In this document: piece after piece, positions 16,494 to 52,676 of the stretch
How the letters are laid out: every line of letters begins with the position of its first letter
Position numbering within the stretch: position 1 is the stretch's first letter
Source of the DNA: Bacteroidota bacterium
GTDB taxonomy: Bacteria > Bacteroidota > Bacteroidia > AKYH767-A > 2013-40CM-41-45
DNA: 64,000 nt
NCBI GenBank assembly: GCA_016721305.1
Contig: JADKIH010000007.1
Location: 112,595-176,594 of the forward strand
Reading direction: 5' to 3'
Notes under the pieces: generated by a model
The model's input: the letters and a program-made list of their open reading frames with translations, nothing else
Databases searched by the model: none
Told to the model about the DNA's origin: nothing
Made by a program: the position numbers and the translations under genes

Positions 16494-18444
16494 ATGAAAA
16501 TTAAAAGCTTCTTACTGACCCTGCTCATCACTCTCTCACTCGCGACATACGCACAAAATAAGGAGGAGTTAACTTCATCTGTACCAAAAGCCGTTAGAGC
16601 ATTCGAAACAGCTTTGAAATACTACGATGGCAGGTTGAACCAAAAAGCAGTTGAAGCACTTGATGAGGCAATCGAAGCCGACCCTAAATTTGTAGAAGCA
16701 CATACATTGAAGGGCAACATTCTCTCCGACATGAAAGAATATGAAAAGGCCATTGCCAGTTATAAGAATGCAATTACAGCGAGTCCTGATTTTTTCCCAA
16801 ACACGTATTACTCACTCGGAAAATTACAATACCGAGCCGGGCATTATGAAGAAGCAAAATCTTCGTTCACAAAATTTTTAAGTTATGATAAAATCAGCCC
16901 GGGGCTAAAGCAAGGAGCAAATGTTCTGAGTGCGAATTGTGATTTTGCAATCAATGCAGTTAAAAATCCTGTAGCATTTGACCCGACGAATATGGGTGAT
17001 AGCATCAACTCAAAAGAAGACGAGTATTTCCCATCGTTTACAGTAGATGGACAATCTTTGCTCTTCACTCGTAAATTACCTTCAGGGAGAACATTTCAGG
17101 AAGACTTTTATAAATCAGAGTTAAAAGGATCTTCGTGGTCATTTGCAAAAGCTGTTACCGAGTTAAATACACCGGCTAACGAAGGAGCGTCTTTTATGAC
17201 GGCCGATGGACAATACTTATTTTTTGCCTCTTGTGAAGAGCTTGGAAATCCTGATTCGCGTCCGACCAAGGGAAGCTGCGATATTTTCATTGCTAAAAAA
17301 GTCGGCGATAAATTTATGAATCCGCGTGATTTGCTTGAACCGCTGAATTCAGGTGGATGGGAAAGTCAGCCATCATTTTCAACAGATGGAAGAACAATTT
17401 ACTTCGTAAAAAAAGTGAAAGAAGCTTCGAATCAAACTCACACCGATATTTATATTTCTCAATTAGACGATAAAGCAAATTGGAGCGTTCCTGTTTCAGT
17501 AAGTGATAAGATCAATACAAAGATGAATGAAAGCGCCGTCTTTATTCATCCCGATGATCAGACATTTTATTTCACATCAAACGGACATCCGGGAATGGGA
17601 GGAGAGGATATTTTTTATTCACGTCGTCAGATCGATGGAACTTGGGGCGATCCTGTAAACTTAGGCTATCCGATAAATACCGTCAACGATGAATTTGGTT
17701 TTGCCGTAAGTCCCGATGCTAAAACAGGGTACTTTGTTTCTGATCGTCCGGGCGGTTTGGGTGGTCTCGATTTATATTCATTTCCATTGTACGAAAGTGC
17801 GAGACCAAAAATCGTAACATACATGAAAGGTCGAGTTTTCGATAGTGAAACGAATGCACCTTTGGATGCATCTTTTGAATTGATTGATCTCGGTACTGGA
17901 AAAGTTATGGTTCGATCTGTGTCTGATTCCAAAACCGGTGAATTTCTTTTATGCCTTCCAACCGGCAAAACAATATGCGCTCAATGTTTCACGTTCCGGC
18001 TATTTATTCTATTCCGATCACTTCGAATTGAAAGATCCTGCTACAGCAAGTAAGCCTGTCAAAAAAGATATTCCGCTCAAACCAATCAAAGCCGGACAAA
18101 CCATTGTCCTCAACAATATCTTTTACGAAACCGACAAGTTCGATTTAAAGCCGGAATCAAAAATTGAATTGGATCGATTAGTAAGTTTCCTGAACAACAA
18201 TCCGAAAGTCCATTTCGAAATCAGCGGTCACACCGATAATGTAGGCGGAAAAGAGTACAACAAAACGCTCTCTGAAAAGCGTGCAAAAACCGTCTATGAT
18301 TATTTAGTCACCGCCGGAATTCCTGCAACAAGAATGAGTTCAAAAGGTTTTGGAGACACCGTCCCTGTTGCCGAAAACACATCCGATGCCGGTAGAGCGA
18401 AGAATCGGAGGACGGAGTTTAAGGTGACTTCTTTGGACAATTAG
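16494..18444 (+). CDS. OmpA family protein with N-terminal TPR and TolB-like beta-propeller repeats (frameshift near 17950-18050)
   Basis: Two overlapping ORFs. The C-terminal OmpA-like domain reads NNIFYETDKFDLKPES...HTDNVGGKEYNKTLSEKRA. Confidence 0.75.
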
Positions 18445-18548
18445 CTAATGGGCTGATTAGCTAATTAGCTAATGATGTTTCATCGGAAGCAGTTGGTGTA
18501 GCGCCATCAGCTAATCAGCTAATCAGCTAATCAGCTAATCAGCTAATT
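18441..18548. repeat. Inverted pair of (AGCTRATT)n arrays forming a potential long hairpin between the convergent OmpA and kdsA genes
   Basis: Left arm ttagctaatgggctgattagctaattagctaatga; right arm atcagctaatcagctaatcagctaatcagctaatcagctaatt. Confidence 0.75.
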
Positions 18549-19354
18549 GGCAACAGCACGTATCGCCACCAACTTCACCAACAACCCCTCCAGCAAATCC
18601 AAATGCAGCATATTAGCGCCGTCGGATTTTGCGTTTTTCGGGTCGGGGTGAGTTTCTACGAAGATGCCGTCGAAGCCCGTAACAATTCCTGCTTTAGCGA
18701 TGAGTTCTATGAGATCGGGACGACCGCCGGTAACACCGGAAGCTTGATTGGGTTGTTGCAGTGAGTGTGTGATATCGAGAATGACAGGAACATTATTCTT
18801 CTTCATTTCAACAACGCCACGGTAATCAACGATCAAATCCTGATAGCCGAACATCGTTCCGCGCTCGGTGAGCATGACGTGATTATTTCCGGCACCGCGA
18901 ACTTTATCCACAGCAAATTTCATTGACTCGGCTGCGAGAAATTGTCCCTTCTTGATGTTTACGGTTTTGCCCGTTTCTGCAGCAGCAACTAAAAGTTCTG
19001 TCTGGCGACAAAGAAAAGCCGGGATCTGCAGTACATCGACGTACTTCGCAGCAATTGCAGCGTCATCGCTTTCGTGAATATCGGTTACAATGGGCACCTG
19101 AAAAGTATCACGAACTTTTTCAAAATCTCCAATGCGTTTTCATCGCCTATACCGGTGAATGAATCCGTACGAGTACGATTTGCTTTGCGATAGCTAGCTT
19201 TAAAAATAAAAGGAATTTTTAAACGGTCTGTAATTTCTTTAACTCGTTTTGCGATTCCCATCGTCATTTCTTCGCTTTCAACTACACATGGTCCTGCAAG
19301 GAGGAAGAAATTTCCGGAATCGGTATTTTTTATAAATGGAATATGATTCAACAT
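18543..19354 (-). CDS. kdsA: 3-deoxy-8-phosphooctulonate synthase (1-bp deletion in an A6 run near 19128)
   Basis: Two ORFs. The N-terminal half reads LNHIPFIKNTDSGNFFLLAGPCVVESEE. Restoring one A gives the continuous ILKKVRDTFQVPIVTDIHE. Confidence 0.85.
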
Positions 19355-22595: not shown

Positions 22596-23840
22596 TTGTT
22601 AAATTTGCAGTCTTATTTTAGGAGTATGTACAAGCTGAATACCGTTGAAGAAGCCATTAATGATTTGAAAAATGGCAAGGTCATTATCGTAGTGGATGAC
22701 GCGAATCGTGAGAATGAAGGTGATTTTATCACTACAGCCGAAAACTCTACACCGGAAGTAATCAATTTCATGGCCACACATGGCCGCGGATTGATTTGTG
22801 TAGCCTTAACCGAAGAACGTTGCGATGAATTGCAGCTTCCTTTGATGGTTAAGAAGAACACAGCATCGCATGAAACGCAGTTCACGGTTTCAGTGGATCT
22901 AATCAGTCCTGATACATCTACCGGAATTTCCGCGTCCGATCGCTCGCATACGATTCGTGCATTGATCGACCCTAATACAAACCCTGATGATCTTGGTCGT
23001 CCGGGTCATATCTTCCCGTTACGTGCTAAAAAAGGTGGTGTACTTCGTCGTACAGGACACACAGAAGCTACCATCGATCTTGCTCGCCTTGCAGGTGCAA
23101 GTCCGGCAGGTACATTGGTAGAGATTATGAACGAAGACGGAACGATGGCTCGTTTGCCGGATCTCATGCTGATTGCCAAGAAATTCAATCTCTCCATTAT
23201 TTCGATTGAAGATCTCATTGCTTACCGACTCAAAGAAGAATCACTTATCGAAAAACAAGTGGACGTAAAGCTGCCAACTGTTTACGGTGATTTCGAATTA
23301 TACGCATACAAACAAATAACAACAGAGCAGGAGCATCTGGCACTTGTAAAAGGTACATGGACGAAAGACGAACCCGTACTTGTTCGTGTTCACTCATCAT
23401 GTCTGACCGGCGATATTTTCGGTTCCTGCCGTTGCGATTGCGGACCTCAGTTACACGCTGCCATGGAAATGATCGAGAAAGAAGGTAAAGGTGTAATCGT
23501 TTACATGAACCAGGAAGGTCGCGGTATCGGTCTGCTCAATAAATTGCGCGCTTATAAACTCCAGGAAAATGGTCGCGATACCGTAGAAGCCAATCTGGAA
23601 TTAGGTTTCAAGAGCGACGAACGCGATTACGGCGTTGGTGCACAAATCTTGCGTGATCTTGGTGTTTCGAAAATGAAATTGATGACTAACAATCCGAAGA
23701 AACGTGCCGGACTAATTGGTTACGGATTGGAGATTGTGAGTGTCGTTCCGATTGAAATGGAATCGAATCAGCATAACAGAAGTTATCTGATGACGAAGCG
23801 CGACAAATTAGGTCACACCCTGAAACTAAATCACGACTAA
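22596..23840 (+). CDS. ribBA: bifunctional 3,4-dihydroxy-2-butanone-4-phosphate synthase / GTP cyclohydrolase II
   Basis: 414 aa with a RibB N-terminus ([11 protein letters not shown]) and a RibA C-terminus (CxCDCGPQL zinc site). The start may be the internal M at 22626. Confidence 0.9.
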
Positions 23841-25033
23841 AATAATTCGTTATAGAATTTCGTAATTTGATTTCCGATAGCTGCTACAGAATATTTTTCT
23901 TCTGCCAGTTTTCGTCCTTCTATGCCTATTGATTTGGCTTTTTCAGGATGATGGAGACAGAGCGCTATCGCAATTTCGAATTGTTCCGGCGTATCGGCTA
24001 ATAGAATGTTTTTCCCGTCTTCCACGGCTATTCCTTCGGCACCTATTGTTGTGGAAATAATTGTTTTTCCTAAAGCAAGCCCTTCGATAATTTTCACGCG
24101 CATTCCGCTGCCGGAACGGAGAGGAACCACCATCAGTTGTTTATCGTTCATGTAATCAGAAGCTCGCTCCACCTGTCCATCGCAAATAACATTCGGGTAA
24201 TGCGCCTCTTTCAAATGCTGAGGAAAATTCCTTCCGGCTAAGAACAATCTGAGTTCCGGAAAAACTTCACCTACTAACGGCCAGCATGTATGCAAAAACC
24301 ACTCAACTCCTTCAACATTTGGCATCCAGTCCATAGCGCCCAGATGGAAGAGCGAAAGCTTCCTTTCATCGAATGGCTGAAACCGGTAGTCGCTCAGATC
24401 AAGGCCCAGAGGAGATGAAGCAGTCTTGCCTTTATAGCCGTGCTGAAGAAAAAACTCTTCATCGACAGGAGTAATTGCAAGAATAGCATCGATTTTGGAG
24501 AGTAAGTTGAGCTCATATTTTTTCAATCGGTTTGCGAGTAGATTCAAATATCATTTTTTGTTTGTTTTATTTTCAGCTTTTGCCAATCGTTCCCAGATGA
24601 TGTGTTCGACATTATGGGCGCGAAGAACAATTTTTGCTTTTGAGTTCTTTCGAATGGCATCCAGATACGGCGTACAAAATATCGTTTCGAATTGAATGAT
24701 ATCAAAAGTGTTTTTCTGAAGATAATCGACCAGCTTTTGTTCGATGGCTTTATTATAAAAACGACTGATATTATAAGATTGTCCGGAGAACAAAGTTCGA
24801 AGAGCACCACTAATTCGTAAATCTGTATTGATAGAAGCAGACTGAAAATGCAACGACTTTTTCAAATCTTCCGGCATCAAAGAAACATCGGAGTAATTGC
24901 GGCTCGGATTCAAAGCGAACTGATGCACTTCATGACCTGAGGCAAGGAGAGCCTTTGCCATATTCATCATGGCAATTTTTCCGCCGTCGCGGGGAGGAAA
25001 AGGAACATGGTGACAGAGCTGCAGAATTCTCAT
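23837..25033 (-). CDS. glycosyltransferase family 4 (interrupted by an in-frame TGA at 24551-24553)
   Basis: The N-terminal ORF ([19 protein letters not shown]...) and the C-terminal ORF (GT1-type EX7E region) are in the same frame and separated by a single TGA. Confidence 0.6.
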
Positions 25034-26456
25034 GAATGAAACCAGCTAAATACATCAAGGGCTTTCCCGACCTTTTGAAAAAACGACTGTACGCTTCGCT
25101 TTCAAACAAAGCTGAATCCGTGGTTGCTTTATAGGTGAGAAAAACACCAATAGGCAGTAAAACAAGAGAAGAAATCCACATTCCCTTCCAGGCAGGAATC
25201 ACATCTTCGCGAGCAAATTTCTCACCCGATATTGAAATAATGTGATACAAGACGAAGAAAAGAATGGAAACAACTAACGGCATTCCTAATCCGCCTTTAC
25301 GGATGATTGCACCGAGTGGCGCTCCAATGAAGAAGAGAATCAGGCAGGCAATTGAGAGAGTGAATTTGCGTTGCCATTCGATATTATGTTTGGCAAGGCT
25401 TCTAGATTTTTGATCGATGTCGAAGTAAGAATCATCAGCCATCGTCTTAACATTTCTTGCCGAATACAAGGCAGCGGAAGCCAAAGATGCTTGTTTATCC
25501 TTTCTGAAATTGGAGAGGAAATTTCCTTTGAATGACAACGACGCAAGATTTTTTGATTCCGACGAATCGATATTGAGAGCAGGGGTAATCAACTTGTATA
25601 AATTTGCGCGACTGCCATCAATTCTCTTTTGTATGGAATCGGCAGCATAATTCAGCTGTTTAAGATTCAGCATTTGGTAGTTGTCGCGGAACAATTGCTC
25701 ATTGGTACGAGTCATTTTGAAAGAAGAAAGATCGAGACGAATTAATTCCGATTCAAATTCCGTTCTCATCATCGGATGCGATTGATGTCCGGGACGATTC
25801 TCCTGTTCTTCGTAACTTGAGCCTTTATACAAATTGAGAAGCAAAAAGCGTTCATCATCGGACATAGCCATTTTCCCCGATTCCGCCAGAATAACTTTTG
25901 TGTTCCCGCGATTTTCGGAATGATCATAGATCATGATATTCTTCAGACTTTGTCCATCCGGATCTTTATGCCCGATCTTGATCGAATAGCCGTCGATACC
26001 ATTATAGAAAACACCTTCCTTAATGAGAAGAGCCGGCTTTTGCTGTCGCACATCATAGAGAAGAGCATTCATTTTCAGATTCGCTACCGGAAGAATATTG
26101 TTAGAGAAGAAGAATGCGCTTCCTGAAATGAGCAATGCTGTAATGGTAAGCGGGCGCATGACACGTTGAAGCGACACACCGGCCGATTTGCAGGCAGTGA
26201 GTTCAAAATGCTCGGCCAGATTTCCGAACGTCATGATTGAAGATAGCAGCAGCGAAAGAGGCAAGGCTAGTGGAACAAGTGTTACCGAAACGTACATCAT
26301 TAGTTTAAGGATGAGAAAAGCATCAAGACCTTTTCCGACGAGATCATCAATATACTTCCACAAAAACTGCATTAAAAGCACAAAAAGCGAGATCAGGAAG
26401 GTCACCACCATCGGGCCTGCAAATGATCGGAGAACAAGCAGAGTTAATTTCTTCAC
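24930..26456 (-). CDS. LptF/LptG family LPS export permease (3' end uncertain)
   Basis: YjgP/YjgQ-type TM topology with a large periplasmic domain. The last ~34 codons overlap the GT4 start and look out-of-frame. Confidence 0.65.
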   Translation of the reverse strand: MKKLTLLVLRSFAGPMVVTFLISLFVLLMQFLWKYIDDLVGKGLDAFLILKLMMYVSVTLVPLALPLSLLLSSIMTFGNLAEHFELTACKSAGVSLQRVMRPLTITALLISGSAFFFSNNILPVANLKMNALLYDVRQQKPALLIKEGVFYNGIDGYSIKIGHKDPDGQSLKNIMIYDHSENRGNTKVILAESGKMAMSDDERFLLLNLYKGSSYEEQENRPGHQSHPMMRTEFESELIRLDLSSFKMTRTNEQLFRDNYQMLNLKQLNYAADSIQKRIDGSRANLYKLITPALNIDSSESKNLASLSFKGNFLSNFRKDKQASLASAALYSARNVKTMADDSYFDIDQKSRSLAKHNIEWQRKFTLSIACLILFFIGAPLGAIIRKGGLGMPLVVSILFFVLYHIISISGEKFAREDVIPAWKGMWISSLVLLPIGVFLTYKATTDSALFESEAYSRFFKRSGKPLMYLAGFIHENSAALSPCSFSSPRRRKNCHDEYGKGSPCLRS

Positions 26457-26574: not shown

Positions 26575-27180
26575 GTGCAAGATACTATTTTGAACTTTAG
26601 CGAAAAGGAACTGCTTATTTTGCAGGATACCGATTTCTACCTTCTCAAGCATTCGGCAACGAAGAAGATTATGGATTTATTGGGGCATCTGGAAGTTGGT
26701 CTGAAACCCCTTGCATTGAATGCCGGCTTAAGCATTCATGGGTTAAATGCAGAGAGCGGTAAGATCTTCCGCGGAGAGAATTACAAGGGCTTCCCATATA
26801 TCATTCTGGATTGTCCACGACTATTTCATGCAGATTCGGTTTTTGCTTTTCGATCGATGTTCTGGTGGGGGCATGAATTCAGCTTTACATTGCACTTACA
26901 AGGAGCTGCGTTGGAAGGCTTACGGGAGAAGCTTTACGAGGGAATGGGGCTCCTAAAAGGGCAGGGGTTCTATTTTTGTGTGAACGACAATCCATGGCAA
27001 TATCACTTCGAGGAAAGCAATTACATCATGCTCGATCACCGCTTCGAAAAAAGTCGAGAAGAAGTTATGACGAAATCATTCATCAAACTAAGCCGTCGAT
27101 TGAAAATCACTGAATATCAGGAGACAGAATTGTACGGTAAGCAAAGCTTTGAATTGCTTTTGGCCTGTTTGAAAAAATAA
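26575..27180 (+). CDS. hypothetical protein
   Basis: 201-aa ORF. No family recognised. Confidence 0.4.
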   Translation: MQDTILNFSEKELLILQDTDFYLLKHSATKKIMDLLGHLEVGLKPLALNAGLSIHGLNAESGKIFRGENYKGFPYIILDCPRLFHADSVFAFRSMFWWGHEFSFTLHLQGAALEGLREKLYEGMGLLKGQGFYFCVNDNPWQYHFEESNYIMLDHRFEKSREEVMTKSFIKLSRRLKITEYQETELYGKQSFELLLACLKK

Positions 27181-27302
27181 TTGAAAAAGCTAATTCAGCC
27201 ATCAAAGGCCGGAAAAAATAAAAGTTAGCTCAATGGCTAACCTCGTTTAAAGTAATTTCTAAAAAGCAATATCACACTTACAAATCCACCTTCAAAATAA
27301 GA

Positions 27303-27372
27303 GTAGCGAGGGGGGGAGTCGAACCCCCGACCTCAGGGTTATGAATCCTCTCTACCATCGAGCACCCCAATT
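27303..27372 (-). tRNA. tRNA-like element: canonical T-arm and 3' acceptor, CAT-containing anticodon loop, defective 5' half
   Basis: Minus strand reads GGGGTGCTCGATGGTAGAGAGGATTCATAACCCTGAGGTCGGGGGTTCGACTCCCCCCCTCGCTA. The T-arm GGGGGTTCGACTCCCCC is canonical, but the D-stem is missing and the 5' acceptor is not complementary. Confidence 0.4.
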
Positions 27373-27379
27373 TTTTCTT

Positions 27380-27447
27380 GGGTCGAAACCCCGTCCGCCG
27401 TGGCGGATATGAATCCTGCGCTCTAACCATCTGAGCTACCTCGCCGG
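27380..27447 (-). tRNA. tRNA-like 5' half (acceptor + D-arm + anticodon loop) lacking a T-arm and 3' acceptor
   Basis: GGCGAGGTAGCTCAGATGGTTAGAGCGCAGGATTCATATCC then a GCCACGGCGG hairpin. Its 5' acceptor GGCGAGG is complementary to the 3' acceptor CCTCGCT of element 27303-27372. Confidence 0.35.
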
Positions 27448-27469
27448 AAATATTTTTCTCACTCTTTGG

Positions 27470-27535
27470 AGTCGAAACCCCGTCCGCCGTGGCGGATATG
27501 AATCCTGAACTCAAATACTCTGAGCTACCTTGCCA
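27470..27535 (-). tRNA. tRNA-like 5' half, a variant copy of 27380-27447
   Basis: GGCAAGGTAGCTCAGAGTATTTGAGTTCAGGATTCATATCCGCCACGGCGGACGGGGTTTCGACTCC. Confidence 0.3.
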
Positions 27536-27583
27536 AATTGGGGGTGCAAATATCCGAATTCATTTGATTTTTGCAAACTTTTT

Positions 27584-28042
27584 TCAGCTTCTGCCCTCTT
27601 CGTTGAGCAATTTGGTATAATGCTTTAGAGATCGGAGAATTAACGTCATTATTGCAGTGACTCCCAGCAAAATGAGGAGTTTTTGACTTACGTAAAAGAC
27701 ATCCCAGTTTTTGAAATTGATAACAGCATCAACGAAAACATAGCCGATTACCGTTGCCAAAACGCCGGAATATTCTCTTCGAAGCACACTTTTCATGGAG
27801 AAAGGAATAGTGCTCTTTTTGAAGGAGCTGAAACGAGGAATAAAAGCCGGAATAGATTTAGCCCAATCAAGGTACGACTGGCCAAACTTTCTTTCCAAAA
27901 AACGCTCTTCGGCAAACATGATACGCTCATAATAGAGCCAGTACATCAGGCTTACGATAATCGTAAACGAAATATTCTTTGTAAAGAGAACGATACCAAT
28001 CCACATGAGATAATTTCCCAGGTAGAGTGGATGGCGAACCAT
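27584..28042 (-). CDS. isoprenylcysteine carboxyl methyltransferase / PEMT-family membrane methyltransferase (possibly N-terminally truncated)
   Basis: HPLYLGNYLMWIG motif and a TM C-terminal half. 152 aa is short for the family. Confidence 0.5.
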   Translation of the reverse strand: MVRHPLYLGNYLMWIGIVLFTKNISFTIIVSLMYWLYYERIMFAEERFLERKFGQSYLDWAKSIPAFIPRFSSFKKSTIPFSMKSVLRREYSGVLATVIGYVFVDAVINFKNWDVFYVSQKLLILLGVTAIMTLILRSLKHYTKLLNEEGRS

Positions 28043-28344
28043 TGAATAAATGCCACTGCTGTTTAATTGCTCAGCTACCTGTTCTTCCGGGTTGAACGGT
28101 CATCGGTTTAATGGTAATTTGCCAATCGAAAATTAGGAATACAATTTTGCCAAATGCAATTTCACACAGAATTGTTTAATGTAGAACCGATCACGGTCCA
28201 CCGAGCACCGATCGCAAACCACCCGTACAGAGCGATTTTCGTCTATTTTAAGCGTATTAAAACTAACTCGTTTCAGAAAATATGACTATCTTGAGCGCCG
28301 CTCCAAAAGAGCCATCCTATTAGTTTTACAAGTAACAACACATC

Positions 28345-28749
28345 GTGAAGCAAGAAATCAAAGCGAAGAAAAAAGTGAAATATTCACTTGAATTTGAAGT
28401 TAAATCGTCACCAAAGATTCTCTATAATTACCTCAGTAATGCAAGTAGTCTCGAAGAATGGTTTGCCGATAAAGTAACTATCCGGGAAGGTGATTTTATT
28501 TTTCATTGGGATGGCACTGAACAACGTGCTCATATCGTAACGAAAAAGGAAAATCAGATGATCCGCTATAAGTGGGTAACTGATGATAAAAAAGACGAGA
28601 CTTTTTTCCAGTTCGAAATCGTGCAGGATGAAATTACTTCAGATGTAGCCCTTATCGTTACCGACTTTGCCGAAGAAGAGGAGAAAGAAGAAAACTCAAT
28701 GCTTTGGGATAGTCAGATTCATAACCTGATGCATATTATTGGATCCTAA
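28345..28749 (+). CDS. SRPBCC (START/AHSA1-like) family protein
   Basis: 134 aa of typical length, with an acidic tail. Confidence 0.45.
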   Translation: MKQEIKAKKKVKYSLEFEVKSSPKILYNYLSNASSLEEWFADKVTIREGDFIFHWDGTEQRAHIVTKKENQMIRYKWVTDDKKDETFFQFEIVQDEITSDVALIVTDFAEEEEKEENSMLWDSQIHNLMHIIGS

Positions 28750-28906: not shown

Positions 28907-29001
28907 TCTCTAATTTCTAATTACCAATTTCTACTTTCTACTTACTACTTACTACTTACTACTTACTACTTACTACTTACTACTTACAACTTACTACTTC
29001 C
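28907..29001. repeat. (TACTTAC)x~9 heptamer array with leader ctaatttctaattaccaatttctac
   Basis: Direct read. Same leader and repeat unit as 2757-2862. Confidence 0.85.
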
Positions 29002-29017: not shown

Positions 29018-29052
29018 GGCTCCTATTTCAAAAGCCGTTTACAAAGAGGTTA
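29018..29052 (-). terminator. terminator for the histone-like gene
   Basis: The minus strand reads aaacggcttttgaaataggagccgttt followed by T8. Confidence 0.55.
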
Positions 29053-43445: not shown

Positions 43446-44781
43446 CTACAGAGTCTTCAACTTCTTCCAAACCCCCGACCTCAAATAAGCATAACAAGCT
43501 GCTCCGGCGAAGAGCCAGTAAATAATTTCGGAGCCCCAAACGGATTCGACACTGCCTTTGAAAACGAAGGTGAAAAGATAAATGTAAACGAGATAGAGAA
43601 AGATTGAAACGATCTCAATGTACAAAGCCATGCGTGTGGCACCGGTACCGCTAACGGCGTTGATGGAGACGATGGCAAACGAAAAGAAAATTAAGGCGAT
43701 GTCTACTATCTGCATAGTATGCAACGAATCATGTATCAATTGTTGATCATTGGTAAAAATGCCGAGTATTTCTTCCGGAAAAAGTAGATTGATCAGAATC
43801 ATCACTACAGCGACAATCATGGTCAGGCTGATGATGCGATTCAAAAGCACCATCACTTCATCTTTACGTCCCTGGCCGATAATATTGCTCACCATACTAT
43901 TCGCCGAAACCGAAAATCCCCAGAATGGTGTCATGCTGATCATATAACTTCCGCGAACTACATTCGACATGGCCAATTCGTGTGCACCGATTTTCTCGAT
44001 GAAGACAAAGAAAACAAACCATGCGCCTATTGAAAGCAGATTTTGTACGATCAACGGTAACGATAAAGTAATGATTTTCGAGACTTCCTCACGATTAAAG
44101 CTCCGGAATCTGAATAATTGAAATTCCTTGATCTCCTTTTCGAAAACAGTGAATAAAATCAAATACAACAAAGAGATAAATTCTGCCACGGAAGAAGCCA
44201 GGCCGGCACCTTTAATTCCCATAGCGGGACTTCCCCAATGACCAAAGATGAATGCATAGCCGCAAAGAATATTTACACCGGGCCATCAGAAACGAATAAT
44301 AGCCATACACTCTTGGACGGGCAATCCCAACATAAAGCGATCTGAATGCCGTTGCAAGCATCACAAAGATGATTCCATAAGATCGATAACATAAGAAATC
44401 GCTTACTGCATCTATAAGCTCGTGACCATTTAACAGAAATGGAAGCAGAGGAGGAGCTATCCATTTTAAAAAGACAAAAAGAAAAATAGCAAGAGCAGAA
44501 AGAATAATCAGACTCTGATCAAAGACTTCACCAATTGCCTGATGATTTTTTTCACCGGCACGACGTGAAATGATTATCTGTGTACCAATGCCTATCGAAA
44601 TCCCTATCATCGCAAACACAAAATACAACACACCGCCAAGAGCCGAAGCACCCAATTCCGTCTCGCCGATGCGACCAAGGAAAACGGTGTCGGTTACATT
44701 CACGACTGTCATGGCAAAGCTCCCGATCATTACCGGAAGCGCCATTCTGAAAATTTCGCGATAGCTAGTGTTTACCTGCAT
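43446..44781 (-). CDS. MATE family efflux transporter (frameshift near 44212-44290)
   Basis: Two ORFs of 12-TM topology that resemble a MATE transporter when joined. Confidence 0.65.
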
Positions 44782-50064: not shown

Positions 50065-52676
50065 TTAAACCTCTACCGTTTTCCTGATATTCTTAAAAAC
50101 GAATTCGTTTTTACTATTTATGTCCAATTCGATGTGATCTTCCTTGTTAATCGAACCGGCCAGAATTTGCTTCGATAATTCATTCAAAACACGTTTTTGC
50201 ATGACGCGTTTCAATGGGCGGGCACCGAATTGCGGATCAAATCCGAGCTGTGACAACCATTCAATGGCTTTTTCACTTGCTGTGATTTGAATTTCATTTT
50301 GGCCTAAGAGCTCCTGAAGTTTTGTGAATTGAATTCTCACGATATCTTCAACTTCATCGCGTGTCAGCGGTTGGAACATGATCACTTCATCAATGCGATT
50401 CAAAAACTCCGGACGAATCGTCTTCTTCAGCAAATCAAACACCTTCGTTTTGCTCCGTGCAATCACTTCTTCCTTATTCAGCTCATTCATTTCTTCAAAA
50501 CTTTCCTGAATGAGGTGAGAACCGATATTGGAAGTCATGACGATGATTGTGTTCTTGAAATTAGCCGTACGTCCTTTGTTGTCCGTTAAGCGACCATCAT
50601 CCAATACCTGCAATAAGATGTTGAATACATCCGGATGTGCTTTTTCAATCTCATCGAGCAAAATTACAGAGTAGGGACGACGTCGAACCGCTTCGGTAAG
50701 CTGTCCGCCTTCATCGTAGCCTACGTAACCGGGAGGTGCACCTACGAGTCGAGATACTGCATGGCGCTCCTGATATTCGCTCATATCGATGCGAGTCATC
50801 GCACTTTCGTCGTTGAATAAAAACTCAGCCAGTGCTTTTGCCAATTCGGTTTTTCCGACACCTGTTGTTCCAAGAAAGATGAAAGAACCGATTGGTTTTT
50901 TCATATCCTGTAAGCCTGCACGACTGCGACGAACAGCATCACTCAACGCTTCAATGGCTTCGTTCTGTCCGATGACACGCTTGTGCAATTCTTCTTCCAG
51001 ATGGAGTAATTTCTCCGTTCACTTTGAAGCATCCGTTGCACCGGAATGCCGGTCCAGCGAGCAACTACTTCTGCAATATCTTCCGAATCGACTTCTTCTT
51101 TAATCAAAGCCTTATCGGTTTGCATACTTGCCAGTTGTTTTTCGAGCTTGTGTAATTGCTCTTCGGCTTCAACGACGCGTCCATAGCGGATTTCGGCAAC
51201 CTTTCCATAATCACCGCTGCGTTCAGCCTGCTCAGCTTCAATCTTGAGCATTTCTACTTTTTCTTTATTGGATTGAATGCCTTGAACAACGGCCTTTTCA
51301 GATTCCCAACGAGCTTTGATTTGATTTCGTTCTTCATTCAGATTTGCAAGTGTCTCATTCAACTCCTGCAATTTTTTCTGATCCTTTTCGCGCTTGATCG
51401 CTTCACGTTCGATTTCAATCTGCATAATGCGACGATTTAATTCATCCAGCTCTTCCGGAACTGAATCAATTTCCAATCGCAACTTAGAAGCTGCTTCGTC
51501 CATTAGGTCAATAGCTTTATCCGGGAGGAATCGATCGGAGATGTAACGCTCGCTTAATTCAACGGCGGCAATAATTGCTTCGTCTTTGATACGAACTTTG
51601 TGATGTGTTTCATAACGTTCTTTCAGCCCGCGTAGAATTGAGATGGCATCTTCCGCAGATGGCTCTTCTACCATGACTTTCTGAAAACGACGTTCGAGTG
51701 CTTTATCTTTTTCTACATACTTCTGGTATTCGGCAAGTGTAGTAGCACCGATAGCTCTTAATTCGCCACGTGCAAGAGCAGGCTTGAGAATGTTCGCAGC
51801 ATCCATAGCACCTTCACCGCCACCGGCTCCAACGAGCGTATGTATTTCATCGATGAAGAGAACGATATTCCCTTCGGCGCTGATTACTTCTTTCACAACG
51901 GCTTTTAATCGTTCTTCGAACTCACCTTTATATTTCGCACCGGCGATGAGTGAACCCATGTCGAGCGAGAAAATTTGTTTCGTTTTTAAATTCTCCGGAA
52001 CGTCGCCATTGATAATACGATGGGCGAGTCCTTCGGCAATAGCTGTCTTTCCAACACCGGGTTCACCGATTAATATCGGATTATTTTTGGTACGACGAGA
52101 TAAAATCTGAAGCACACGTCGAATTTCTTCATCGCGACCAATAACAGGATCAAGCTTACCCTGACGGGCGAGCTCATTCAGATTCTTTGCGTACTTGTTT
52201 AATGAATTGTACGTCTCTTCAGCGCTGGCGCTCGTCACTTTCGAACCCTTTCGTAATTCGGAGATGGCAGCCTTTGCATCCTTTTCATTCAGTCCTTCGC
52301 CCTTCAGCATTTCGCTTACTTTATCGCGAATACTAAACATGGCAAGAAATAAATGTTCGAGTGAAACAAACTCGTCACCTAAACCTTTTGCAAGAGCAAT
52401 TGATTTTTGAATAAGCTTGTTCGATTCGTCAGACAAATAAATCCGTCCGCCCTGAACTTTCGGAAGAGAGTCGATAATCTTCAGTGTGGCTGTTTGGATT
52501 TTATCCGGACTCACATTGCTTTTCTTAAGAATGAAAGGCAACACGTTTTCATCAACTTCGAATATTCCTTTGAGTATATGAGCAGGTTCAATCGATTGCT
52601 GTCCGTTACTCTCGGCCAGTTGTTGAGCAGACTGTATGGCTTCCTGCGATTTGATGGTGAAATTGTTCAGATTCAT
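50065..52676 (-). CDS. clpB: ATP-dependent chaperone ClpB (1-bp deletion in a G3 run near 50960)
   Basis: Two ORFs with both AAA+ modules ([18 protein letters not shown]) and a coiled-coil M domain. Restoring one G gives the continuous ...[24 protein letters not shown]. Confidence 0.9.

What the first reader, a model, noticed from the sequence alone, without database searches (positions are those of the whole stretch)
27295..27540. Scrambled tRNA cluster: three tandem tRNA-like fragments, none of which forms a canonical cloverleaf
On the minus strand there are two copies of a tRNA 5' half with a canonical D-arm (GGCRAGGTAGCTCAGATGGTTAGAGC...CAGGATTCATA, CAU anticodon loop). Each is fused to an unrelated GCCACGGCGG hairpin. 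After them comes a third element with a perfect T-arm and a 3' acceptor complementary to the first two, but its D-stem is deleted. Splicing copy B's 5' half to copy C's 3' half gives a plausible tRNA-Met/Ile2(CAU). This could be an integration or attachment-site scar series at an anticodon loop, or a collapsed or mis-assembled tandem tRNA-Met array. Either way the annotated tRNA complement here needs checking.
Basis: seen in the sequence. Interest (0 to 1): 0.5.

Follow-up and report, generated by a model that had tools for sequence, protein, structure and literature searches.

The report
Mis-assembled tRNA-Met with repeated half-copies
An ordinary tRNA-Met gene sits behind a real, copy-number-variable 89-base repeat built from the tRNA's own 5' half, and in this assembly the last repeat appears to have been garbled by consensus errors, so the gene only looks broken.

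Summary
The three fragments are in the sequence as described (minus strand, 27304-27534). ARAGORN finds no tRNA in the window. Infernal finds one tRNA (52.3 bits) only by skipping about 70 nt in the anticodon loop.

Five independent short-read metagenome contigs of the same species (98-99.7% identical over aligned blocks) resolve the locus. Three carry fragment A followed by an intact tRNA-Met(CAU) scoring 68.5 bits. A fourth carries perfect 89-nt units (canonical 5' half + hairpin/T-arm-like segment X + spacer) ahead of the same intact tRNA. A fifth sample's contigs break exactly at the anticodon loop.

The window's third element is the canonical spacer + 5' half with 21 of 53 bases removed in about nine small gaps and no substitutions. 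None of 200,000 shuffles gives this pattern. The window shows other residual indels and split housekeeping genes, and it probably comes from a Nanopore-based MAG.

Best reading: a real 89-nt tandem repeat of tRNA-Met half-copies lies upstream of a normal tRNA-Met, and this assembly mis-called the consensus where copy number varies.

No integrase or transposase domain was found in the ORFs of at least 180 aa scanned between about 5 and 44 kb, and relatives have a single plain tRNA-Met. Interest is low. The origin of X is unresolved.

The parts
27545..27577 (-). Promoter-like region TTTGCAAAAATCAAATGAATTCGGATATTTGCA upstream of the array. It resembles the Bacteroidota -33 TTTG / -7 TAnnTTTG promoter type.
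   Evidence: Sequence. A near-identical block (TTTGCAAAAA...CGGATATTTGCAGCCCC) precedes the single tRNA-Met of relative L009. Assignment to the Bacteroidota promoter type is from my own knowledge, not tested. The sigma-70 scan found nothing here.
27497..27534 (-). Unit A, pseudo 5' half of tRNA-Met (positions 1-37) with a degenerate D-arm. The window has GGCAAGG where the sister contigs have GGCGAGG.
   Evidence: Present in L001, L002, L004 and L013, with the single difference at window 27531.
27446..27496 (-). Unit A, segment X plus spacer. X is the perfect hairpin TCCGC-CACG-GCGGA followed by the T-arm-like GGGGTTTCGACTCC. The spacer is AAAGAGTGAGAAAAATATTTCC.
   Evidence: The T-arm-like part matches the real T-arm at 16 of 18 positions (family D2). 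Identical in the sister contigs.
27408..27445 (-). Unit B, canonical tRNA-Met 5' half (acceptor strand, D-arm, anticodon stem 5' strand, loop to position 37).
   Evidence: Identical to the 5' half of the intact tRNA in L001 and L005.
27382..27407 (-). Unit B, second exact copy of X (26 nt).
   Evidence: The same B5-core-X junction is seen in L005, and is implied by the contig break in L013/L003.
27350..27381 (-). Moth-eaten stretch: 32 nt standing for the canonical 53 nt (end of X + spacer + tRNA 5' half up to the anticodon stem). Probably a consensus artefact.
   Evidence: an exact subsequence of the canonical 53-mer, 21 nt lost in 9 gaps, 0 substitutions, 0 of 200,000 shuffles, LCS 32 against a shuffle maximum of 29.
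27304..27349 (-). Core AGGATTCATA (anticodon loop, CAU) plus a perfect tRNA-Met 3' half (anticodon stem 3' strand, variable loop, T-arm, acceptor 3' strand, discriminator A).
   Evidence: Identical to L001/L005 tRNA-Met (68.5 bits).
27213..27244 (-). Terminator-like hairpin plus T-run, about 60 nt downstream of the tRNA.

Best explanation
The locus is a normal, promoter-driven tRNA-Met(CAU) gene. In this species it is preceded by one or more 89-nt pseudo-units. Each unit holds a copy of the tRNA's 5' half (to position 37), then X (a 14-nt perfect hairpin plus a truncated T-arm-like stretch), then a 22-nt spacer.

The oldest unit, A, has a decayed D-arm. Inferred step: because A and the true gene share the 5' half, unequal crossing-over or replication slippage creates further units with a canonical 5' half ('B5X'). 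Copy number therefore differs between strains (shown).

Inferred step: the window comes from a long-read metagenome assembly of a population that is mixed for copy number. Per-column consensus calling over the extra unit kept only some columns. Short-read polishing could not repair this because the stretch is a repeat. That left a moth-eaten third unit and an apparently interrupted tRNA.

The true sequence is most likely A + B5X + intact tRNA-Met. The pseudo-units would be transcribed as a long 5' leader and removed by RNase P cleavage at the true 5' end (inferred, not tested).
For: 1. Contigs from three samples (L001, L002, L004; 98-99.7% identical to the window over aligned blocks) have A + intact tRNA-Met. 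ARAGORN calls it Met-CAT and Infernal scores it 68.5 bits.
2. L005 has perfect 89-nt units, canonical 5' half + X + spacer, before the intact tRNA. TRF reports period 89, 2.6 copies, 100% match.
3. In run ERR14064712, one contig ends just after B's 5' half and another starts at TAACCCTGAGG. That is a graph branch at the anticodon loop, so both junctions exist in that sample.
4. The window's third unit equals the canonical unit minus 21 nt in 9 gaps, with no substitutions. None of 200,000 shuffles reproduces this.
5. Outside the array, about 5.6 kb compared with the same contigs shows only four small indels: -1 T at 25073, which frameshifts LptF/G, +2 at 27294, +7 at 28938 and +1 at 29041. The indel density inside the 53-nt stretch is therefore anomalous.
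6. ClpB and MatE are frameshifted in the window, which fits residual long-read errors.
7. The window's 201-aa protein is identical to NCBI MBL0104037.1, from a 204-kb MAG contig with tag IPP51. A relative with the same tag style, JADJSV, belongs to the Nanopore CANU/Racon/Medaka/Illumina-Racon study PMC8012365.
Against: - No reads were available, so the artefact is inferred, not observed.
- Attribution of the window to the Nanopore MAG rests on one identical protein and the locus-tag style.
- The window also has a 303-nt deletion in the adjacent PEMT-like gene and an in-frame stop in a glycosyltransferase. These could mean this strain is really decaying, in which case the moth-eaten unit could be real.
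- Only 53 of the 89 columns of the extra unit are affected, which the artefact model explains only loosely.
- L005's exact copy number is uncertain, because it is a short-read contig that ends inside the repeat.
Confidence: 0.8

Rival explanations
1. The window sequence is correct. In this strain the last unit of the array suffered real small deletions, so the locus is a dead tRNA-Met pseudogene and another CAU tRNA elsewhere supplies the function.
For: The same strain carries a 303-nt deletion that removes the 5' end of the neighbouring PEMT-like gene. It also has an in-frame stop in a glycosyltransferase. ARAGORN finds no tRNA.
Against: About nine separate deletions and no substitution within 53 nt, in a locus otherwise 98-99.7% identical to sister contigs and carrying very few indels, is not a pattern expected from natural mutation. 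B's 5' half and C's 3' half are both still perfect.
Confidence: 0.12
2. This is a series of attachment-site scars left by integrase-mediated insertion and excision of mobile elements at the anticodon loop of tRNA-Met.
For: A 10-nt direct repeat, AGGATTCATA, flanks the 68-nt extra stretch, and the anticodon loop is a known integrase target class (my own knowledge). The tRNA sits at a junction that is rearranged relative to relatives.
Against: No integrase, transposase or phage domain in the ORFs of at least 180 aa scanned between about 5 and 44 kb, nor in the neighbouring genes. The duplicated part is the 5' half, not the 3' part. No foreign DNA lies between the copies. The 'insert' is a subsequence of the local unit. 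X has no exact match elsewhere in the window, the species-representative genomes or the JGI metagenomes.
Confidence: 0.03
3. The 68 nt are a genuine intervening sequence at position 37/38. It is removed at the RNA level, or at the DNA level by recombination between the 10-nt repeats, to yield a functional tRNA-Met.
For: Infernal places the insertion in the anticodon loop, and the junction can be drawn at 37/38. Removing it gives exactly the tRNA found in sister contigs.
Against: The organism is a bacterium (LptF/G, T9SS sorting domain). There is no group I intron or other Rfam hit. The 142-nt fold is no better than shuffles (z = -1.19). Sister contigs lack the insertion. Its sequence is a degraded copy of the neighbouring repeat.
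Confidence: 0.02

Closest known systems
Bacterial elongator-type tRNA-Met(CAU) gene (Rfam RF00005)
   Same: Once the moth-eaten stretch is set aside, the sequence is identical to an intact 74-nt cloverleaf tRNA found in sister contigs (68.5 bits). It is nearly identical to the single tRNA-Met of a family-level relative (61.6 bits), and the upstream promoter-like block is conserved.
   Different: As assembled, the gene is interrupted (52.3 bits only with a gap of about 70 nt; ARAGORN negative). Whether it is charged as Met or is a lysidine-modified Ile2 cannot be told from sequence here. Pair 1-72 is G-U and pair 31-39 is A/C, which the Rfam alignment flags as the only non-standard pair; the identical anticodon arm is present in the relative.
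tRNA pseudogenes and partial tandem duplications of tRNA genes, with copy-number variation by unequal crossing-over or slippage
   Same: Head-to-tail units with a fixed 89-nt period contain a recognisable tRNA portion. The older unit is decayed, the newer units are identical, and copy number differs between strains.
   Different: The unit carries the 5' half plus a rearranged, hairpin-containing remnant (X) instead of a whole gene. It lies between the promoter and the functional gene, so it would be part of the precursor leader. X's origin is not established.
Consensus or polishing artefacts of long-read metagenome assemblies at heterogeneous tandem repeats
   Same: Deletion-only errors are confined to a repeated stretch that short reads cannot place uniquely. 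A homopolymer indel and frameshifted housekeeping genes occur elsewhere in the same window. The presumed source pipeline is CANU + Racon + Medaka + Illumina Racon.
   Different: This was not demonstrated with reads. The link between the window and that pipeline is inferred.
tRNA-gene integration sites of genomic islands and prophages (attL/attR)
   Same: Repeated tRNA fragments with a short shared core in the anticodon loop.
   Different: No integrase, no element, the wrong half duplicated, and copies directly adjacent.

Membership tests
tRNA (RF00005), functional gene as assembled in the window | Contiguous cloverleaf recognised by tRNA finders | tested here: not met
   ARAGORN finds 0 genes in 64 kb. 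Infernal gives 52.3 bits only with about 70 unaligned nt in the anticodon loop.
tRNA (RF00005), same locus in sister contigs | Contiguous cloverleaf, anticodon CAU, high covariance-model score | tested here: met
   L001, L002, L004 and L005: ARAGORN calls tRNA-Met(cat). L001 and L005 score 68.5 bits, model positions 1-71.
Tandem repeat with variable copy number | Head-to-tail units of constant period | tested here: met
   Window A/B spacing is 89 nt, 64 nt at 89% identity. L005 has period 89, 2.6 copies, 100% match. TRF itself reports nothing in the window.
Tandem repeat with variable copy number | Different unit numbers in different strains of one species | tested here: met
   L001, L002 and L004 have one pseudo-unit. 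L005 and the window have at least two. L013/L003 break at the branch point.
Assembly or consensus artefact | Not reproduced in independent assemblies of the same species | tested here: met
   None of five short-read samples carries the 32-nt stretch 27350-27381. No protein matching the spurious ORF across it is on record.
Assembly or consensus artefact | Error signature typical of the platform (deletion-only, in a repeat) | tested here: met
   21 nt lost in 9 gaps, 0 substitutions, 0 of 200,000 shuffles. A homopolymer deletion at 25073. Split ClpB and MatE.
Assembly or consensus artefact | Reads disagree with the consensus | not testable with these tools
   No reads are available.
tRNA-targeted integrative element scars (attL/attR) | Integrase or other element genes adjacent | tested here: not met
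   Pfam and NCBIfam scans of the neighbouring ORFs, and of ORFs of at least 180 aa between about 5 and 44 kb, show only housekeeping families.
tRNA-targeted integrative element scars (attL/attR) | Direct repeats of the tRNA 3' portion bounding foreign DNA | tested here: not met
   The repeated portion is the 5' half. The units abut one another with only X and a 22-nt spacer between the repeated halves.
Group I intron in a bacterial tRNA anticodon loop | Intron of at least about 200 nt with a P1-P9 fold, detectable by Rfam Intron_gpI | tested here: not met
   The insert is 68 nt. No Rfam hit other than tRNA even at E up to 10.
Archaeal or eukaryal-type tRNA intron | Bulge-helix-bulge at the exon-intron junctions, and a host with a splicing endonuclease | tested here: inconclusive
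   Position 37/38 is compatible. The MFE fold shows no such motif and is no better than shuffles. The host is a Bacteroidota-type bacterium. No dedicated BHB search was run.

The most novel reading that the evidence does not exclude
The interrupted allele is real, and the 89-nt half-tRNA repeat acts as a contingency locus. Slippage between repeats, or between the 10-nt AGGATTCATA cores, would switch the tRNA-Met gene between intact and interrupted states. Alternatively it would vary the length of a leader whose extra 5' acceptor strands compete for the tRNA's 3' strand, tuning the supply of this CAU tRNA. An in-silico fold of A + tRNA does pair A's 5' strand with the 3' acceptor strand.
Probability: 0.04. 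Interest if true: 0.55.

Novelty: new member of a known kind. Interest (0 to 1): 0.12.

Why it matters
Practically, this MAG's tRNA complement is under-counted by one. tRNA finders that do not tolerate insertions miss the gene, and anyone reading the locus would wrongly infer a disrupted or 'split' bacterial tRNA.

It is also a clean example of how long-read metagenome consensus can produce a moth-eaten copy where strains differ in tandem-repeat number.

Biologically, the real feature is a strain-variable repeat of tRNA half-copies between a promoter and its tRNA gene. It is a minor curiosity, and it shows a tRNA gene seeding a small VNTR at a rearranged junction.

Tried and rejected
- Exact scans for X found nothing in 185,579 species-representative genomes or in the JGI metagenomes. 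X is therefore not a widespread element, and the window's genome is not in those sets.
- The 13-nt inverted repeat flanking A + B (I2) was considered as terminal inverted repeats of a small mobile element. My rough calculation expects about one such 11-of-13 match by chance in 450 nt, so I dropped it.
- Reading A or B as complete unusual tRNAs was considered: UCA anticodon, a long variable arm, Sec-like. This fails because there is no 3' acceptor strand, and each folds no better than shuffles (z = -0.6 and -0.45).
- A tmRNA-like origin of 'GGACGGGG' was considered. It is unnecessary, since X's T-like part differs from the tRNA's own T-arm region at only two positions.
- Look-ups of the window's truncated PEMT ORF and of the spurious 78-aa ORF across the array returned nothing. 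The NCBI MAG contig itself could not be fetched (one search returned only L001).
- TRF on the window region reports nothing.
- The origin of X and of unit A stays unresolved. The closest relatives (70% and about 50-54% protein identity) have a single tRNA-Met and the ancestral gene order, so no intermediate state is available.

Full report
**Observation**

On the minus strand of 27304-27534 the sequence reads as follows.
- A promoter-like block lies at 27577-27545.
- Unit A starts with a tRNA 5' half at 27534-27497, GGCAAGGTAGCTCAGAGTATTTGAGTTCAGGATTCATA. Segment X and a spacer follow at 27496-27446, TCCGCCACGGCGGACGGGGTTTCGACTCC + AAAGAGTGAGAAAAATATTTCC.
- Unit B has a canonical 5' half at 27445-27408, followed by the same 26 nt of X at 27407-27382.
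- A 32-nt stretch follows at 27381-27350, CCAAGAAAAAATTGGGGTGCTCGATGGTAGAG.
- The anticodon-loop core AGGATTCATA (27349-27340) and a perfect tRNA 3' half (27339-27304) close the array.

A and B are a direct repeat with 89-nt spacing. The core occurs three times, and X occurs exactly twice against 0 expected by chance. ARAGORN finds no tRNA in the whole 64 kb. Rfam's tRNA model gives one hit at 27445..27304, 52.3 bits. It aligns B's 5' half and C's 3' half to the full model and skips about 70 nt in the anticodon loop.

The one correction is that only B, not A, has a canonical D-arm.

**Organism and neighbourhood**

The flanking genes are these:
- LptF/G permease
- a conserved 201-aa protein of unknown function
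- a PEMT/ICMT-type methyltransferase
- a START-like protein
- a BioF/serine-palmitoyltransferase-like enzyme
- a T9SS-sorted protein
- RibBA

This is a Bacteroidota-type bacterium. No integrase, transposase or phage protein was found in the ORFs of at least 180 aa scanned between about 5 and 44 kb.

**Independent copies of the same locus**

The 201-aa protein is identical or nearly identical in several public contigs.

| Contigs | Source | What they show |
|---|---|---|
| L001, L002, L004 | three different ENA samples, short-read assemblies | Unit A followed directly by an intact 74-nt tRNA-Met(CAU) |
| L005 | a fourth sample | Perfect 89-nt units, then the same intact tRNA |
| L013 and L003 | Logan run ERR14064712 | One contig ends just after B's 5' half, the other begins at TAACCCTGAGG |

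- The intact tRNA is called Met-CAT by ARAGORN in L001, L002, L004 and L005, and scores 68.5 bits with Infernal in L001 and L005.
- L001 differs from the window by about 20 substitutions in 3.8 kb, a 2-nt indel, a 303-nt indel in the PEMT-like gene, and the 68 extra nucleotides inside the tRNA.
- L005's units are canonical 5' half + X + spacer. TRF reports period 89, 2.6 copies and 100% match, and the contig ends inside the repeat.
- The L013/L003 break is an assembly-graph branch exactly at the core. It means both the '5' half-core-X' and the '5' half-core-3' half' junctions exist in that sample.

The 89-nt half-tRNA repeat is therefore real, and its copy number varies between strains. Every complete short-read version ends in an intact tRNA-Met.

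**What the third element is**

I built the expected three-unit array (A + B5X + tRNA) from L001 and L005 and aligned it to the window.
- The match is perfect everywhere except a 53-nt stretch: the end of X, the spacer, and the 5' half of the last tRNA.
- There the window has 32 nt, which are an exact subsequence of the canonical 53.
- 21 nt are missing in 9 small gaps, and there is no substitution.
- None of 200,000 shuffles of the 32-mer is a subsequence of the 53-mer. The longest common subsequence is 32, against at most 29 in shuffles.

In the roughly 5.6 kb of flanking sequence compared with short-read contigs, there are only four small indels. One is a single-T loss in a T-run at 25073, which frameshifts LptF/G (508 aa against 475 aa). 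A cluster of nine deletions without substitutions, confined to a repeated stretch, is what a per-column consensus produces when part of the reads lack the unit. It is not a natural mutation pattern.

**Assembly context**

The window's protein equals NCBI MBL0104037.1, 'MAG... IPP51_09970', on a 204-kb contig. A relative with the same tag style, JADJSV (locus L009), is listed in the supplement of Singleton et al. 2021 (PMC8012365). Those MAGs were assembled from Nanopore reads with CANU and polished with Racon, two rounds of Medaka, and one Illumina Racon round.

That the window comes from that project is an inference. It fits the split ClpB (50065-52676) and MatE (43446-44781) genes, both out of frame, and the homopolymer frameshift in LptF/G.

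**Relatives**

The nearest other species have 70% and about 50-54% identity in the 201-aa protein.
- Their gene order is 203-aa(+), START(-), PEMT(+), tRNA-Met(-).
- L009 shows a single intact tRNA-Met (61.6 bits) preceded by the same promoter-like block (TTTGCAAAAA...CGGATATTTGCA).
- No A unit or X is present.
- X has no exact match in species-representative genomes or JGI metagenomes.

The array is therefore specific to this species and sits at a junction that has been rearranged relative to its relatives.

X's right part matches the tRNA's own T-arm region at 16 of 18 positions. Its left part is a perfect hairpin, and A's altered D-arm also folds as a longer hairpin. A by-product of the rearrangement, or hairpin-templated mutation, is a reasonable guess for its origin, but this was not shown.

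**Mechanism (shown and inferred)**

Shown:
- the repeat structure
- its variation between strains
- the intact gene in sister contigs
- the deletion-only nature of the window's third unit

Inferred:
- New units arise by unequal crossing-over or slippage between A and the true gene. The predicted product, A-B5X-tRNA, is exactly what L005 and the window show.
- The window's moth-eaten unit is a consensus error.
- The pseudo-units are transcribed from the upstream promoter as a leader and removed by RNase P.

An MFE fold of A + tRNA pairs A's 5' strand with the tRNA's 3' acceptor strand. This hints that the extra copies could interfere with folding, but it is only a prediction.

**Rivals**

- A truly decayed pseudogene in this strain remains possible (about 0.12). 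The neighbouring 303-nt deletion and an in-frame stop in a glycosyltransferase might be real.
- Integration scars and an intron-like insertion are each very unlikely, for the reasons given in the rival and membership sections.

**Verdict**

The fragments are real in the assembly, but 'no canonical tRNA here' is most probably an artefact. Underneath lies an ordinary tRNA-Met gene with a small, strain-variable tandem repeat of its own 5' half in front of it. Novelty is low: a new member of the known class of partial tRNA-gene duplications and pseudogenes. Interest is 0.12.

Noticed in passing
window 27584-28344 (junction at 28089/28090): The PEMT/ICMT-like methyltransferase gene lacks its 5' end. 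Relative to L001, L002 and L004 (intact, 247 aa), 303 nt are missing, including the start codon and the upstream region. That leaves a 152-aa ORF matching only the C-terminal part of the family. It may be real strain variation or another assembly problem.
   Followed up: partly
window 25073 (LptF/G gene 24930-26456, minus strand): One T is missing from a T-run compared with L003. This shifts the frame at the 3' end of the LptF/G permease gene (508 aa with an odd tail, against 475 aa).
   Followed up: partly
window 50065-52676, 43446-44781, 16494-18444, 18543-19097: ClpB and MatE are each split into two overlapping out-of-frame ORFs. A TPR/PD40 ORF overlaps a separate OmpA-domain ORF. A DAHP-synthase ORF covers only profile positions 88-257. 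These are likely residual indel errors or pseudogenes.
   Followed up: partly
window 23837-25033 (minus strand): The glycosyltransferase is 398 aa in L003. In the window it is interrupted by an in-frame stop at 24548-24550, with no indel relative to L003.
   Followed up: no
window 26575-28749 versus L006-L009: Gene order around the tRNA is rearranged relative to the nearest other species. Relatives have 203-aa(+), START(-), PEMT(+), tRNA-Met(-). The window has 201-aa(+), tRNA-Met(-), PEMT(-), START(+). The half-tRNA repeat sits at this rearranged junction.
   Followed up: partly
window 27294-27295 and 28938-28944: There are two extra bases in a T-run 10 nt downstream of the tRNA. There is also one extra 7-nt unit (CTACTTA) in a short tandem repeat, relative to the short-read contigs.
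   Followed up: no
window 27545-27577 (minus strand); L009 4493-4545: A conserved block, TTTGCAAAAA-N-TTCGGATATTTGCA, precedes the tRNA-Met in both the window species and a family-level relative. It resembles the Bacteroidota -33/-7 promoter type (assigned from memory). The sigma-70 scan does not see it.
   Followed up: no
L001 2022-2095; L009 4419-4492: The tRNA-Met has a G1-U72 pair and an A31/C39 mismatch at the bottom of the anticodon stem, with a UUCAUAA loop. The anticodon arm is identical in the relative. Its identity (Met or lysidine-Ile2) was not determined.
   Followed up: no
window 27483-27496 and 27394-27407; 27508-27526: The non-tRNA parts of the units are perfect hairpins. One is TCCGC-CACG-GCGGA in X. 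The other is A's altered D-arm, which folds as an 8-bp stem. This could point to hairpin-templated mutation as their origin.
   Followed up: no
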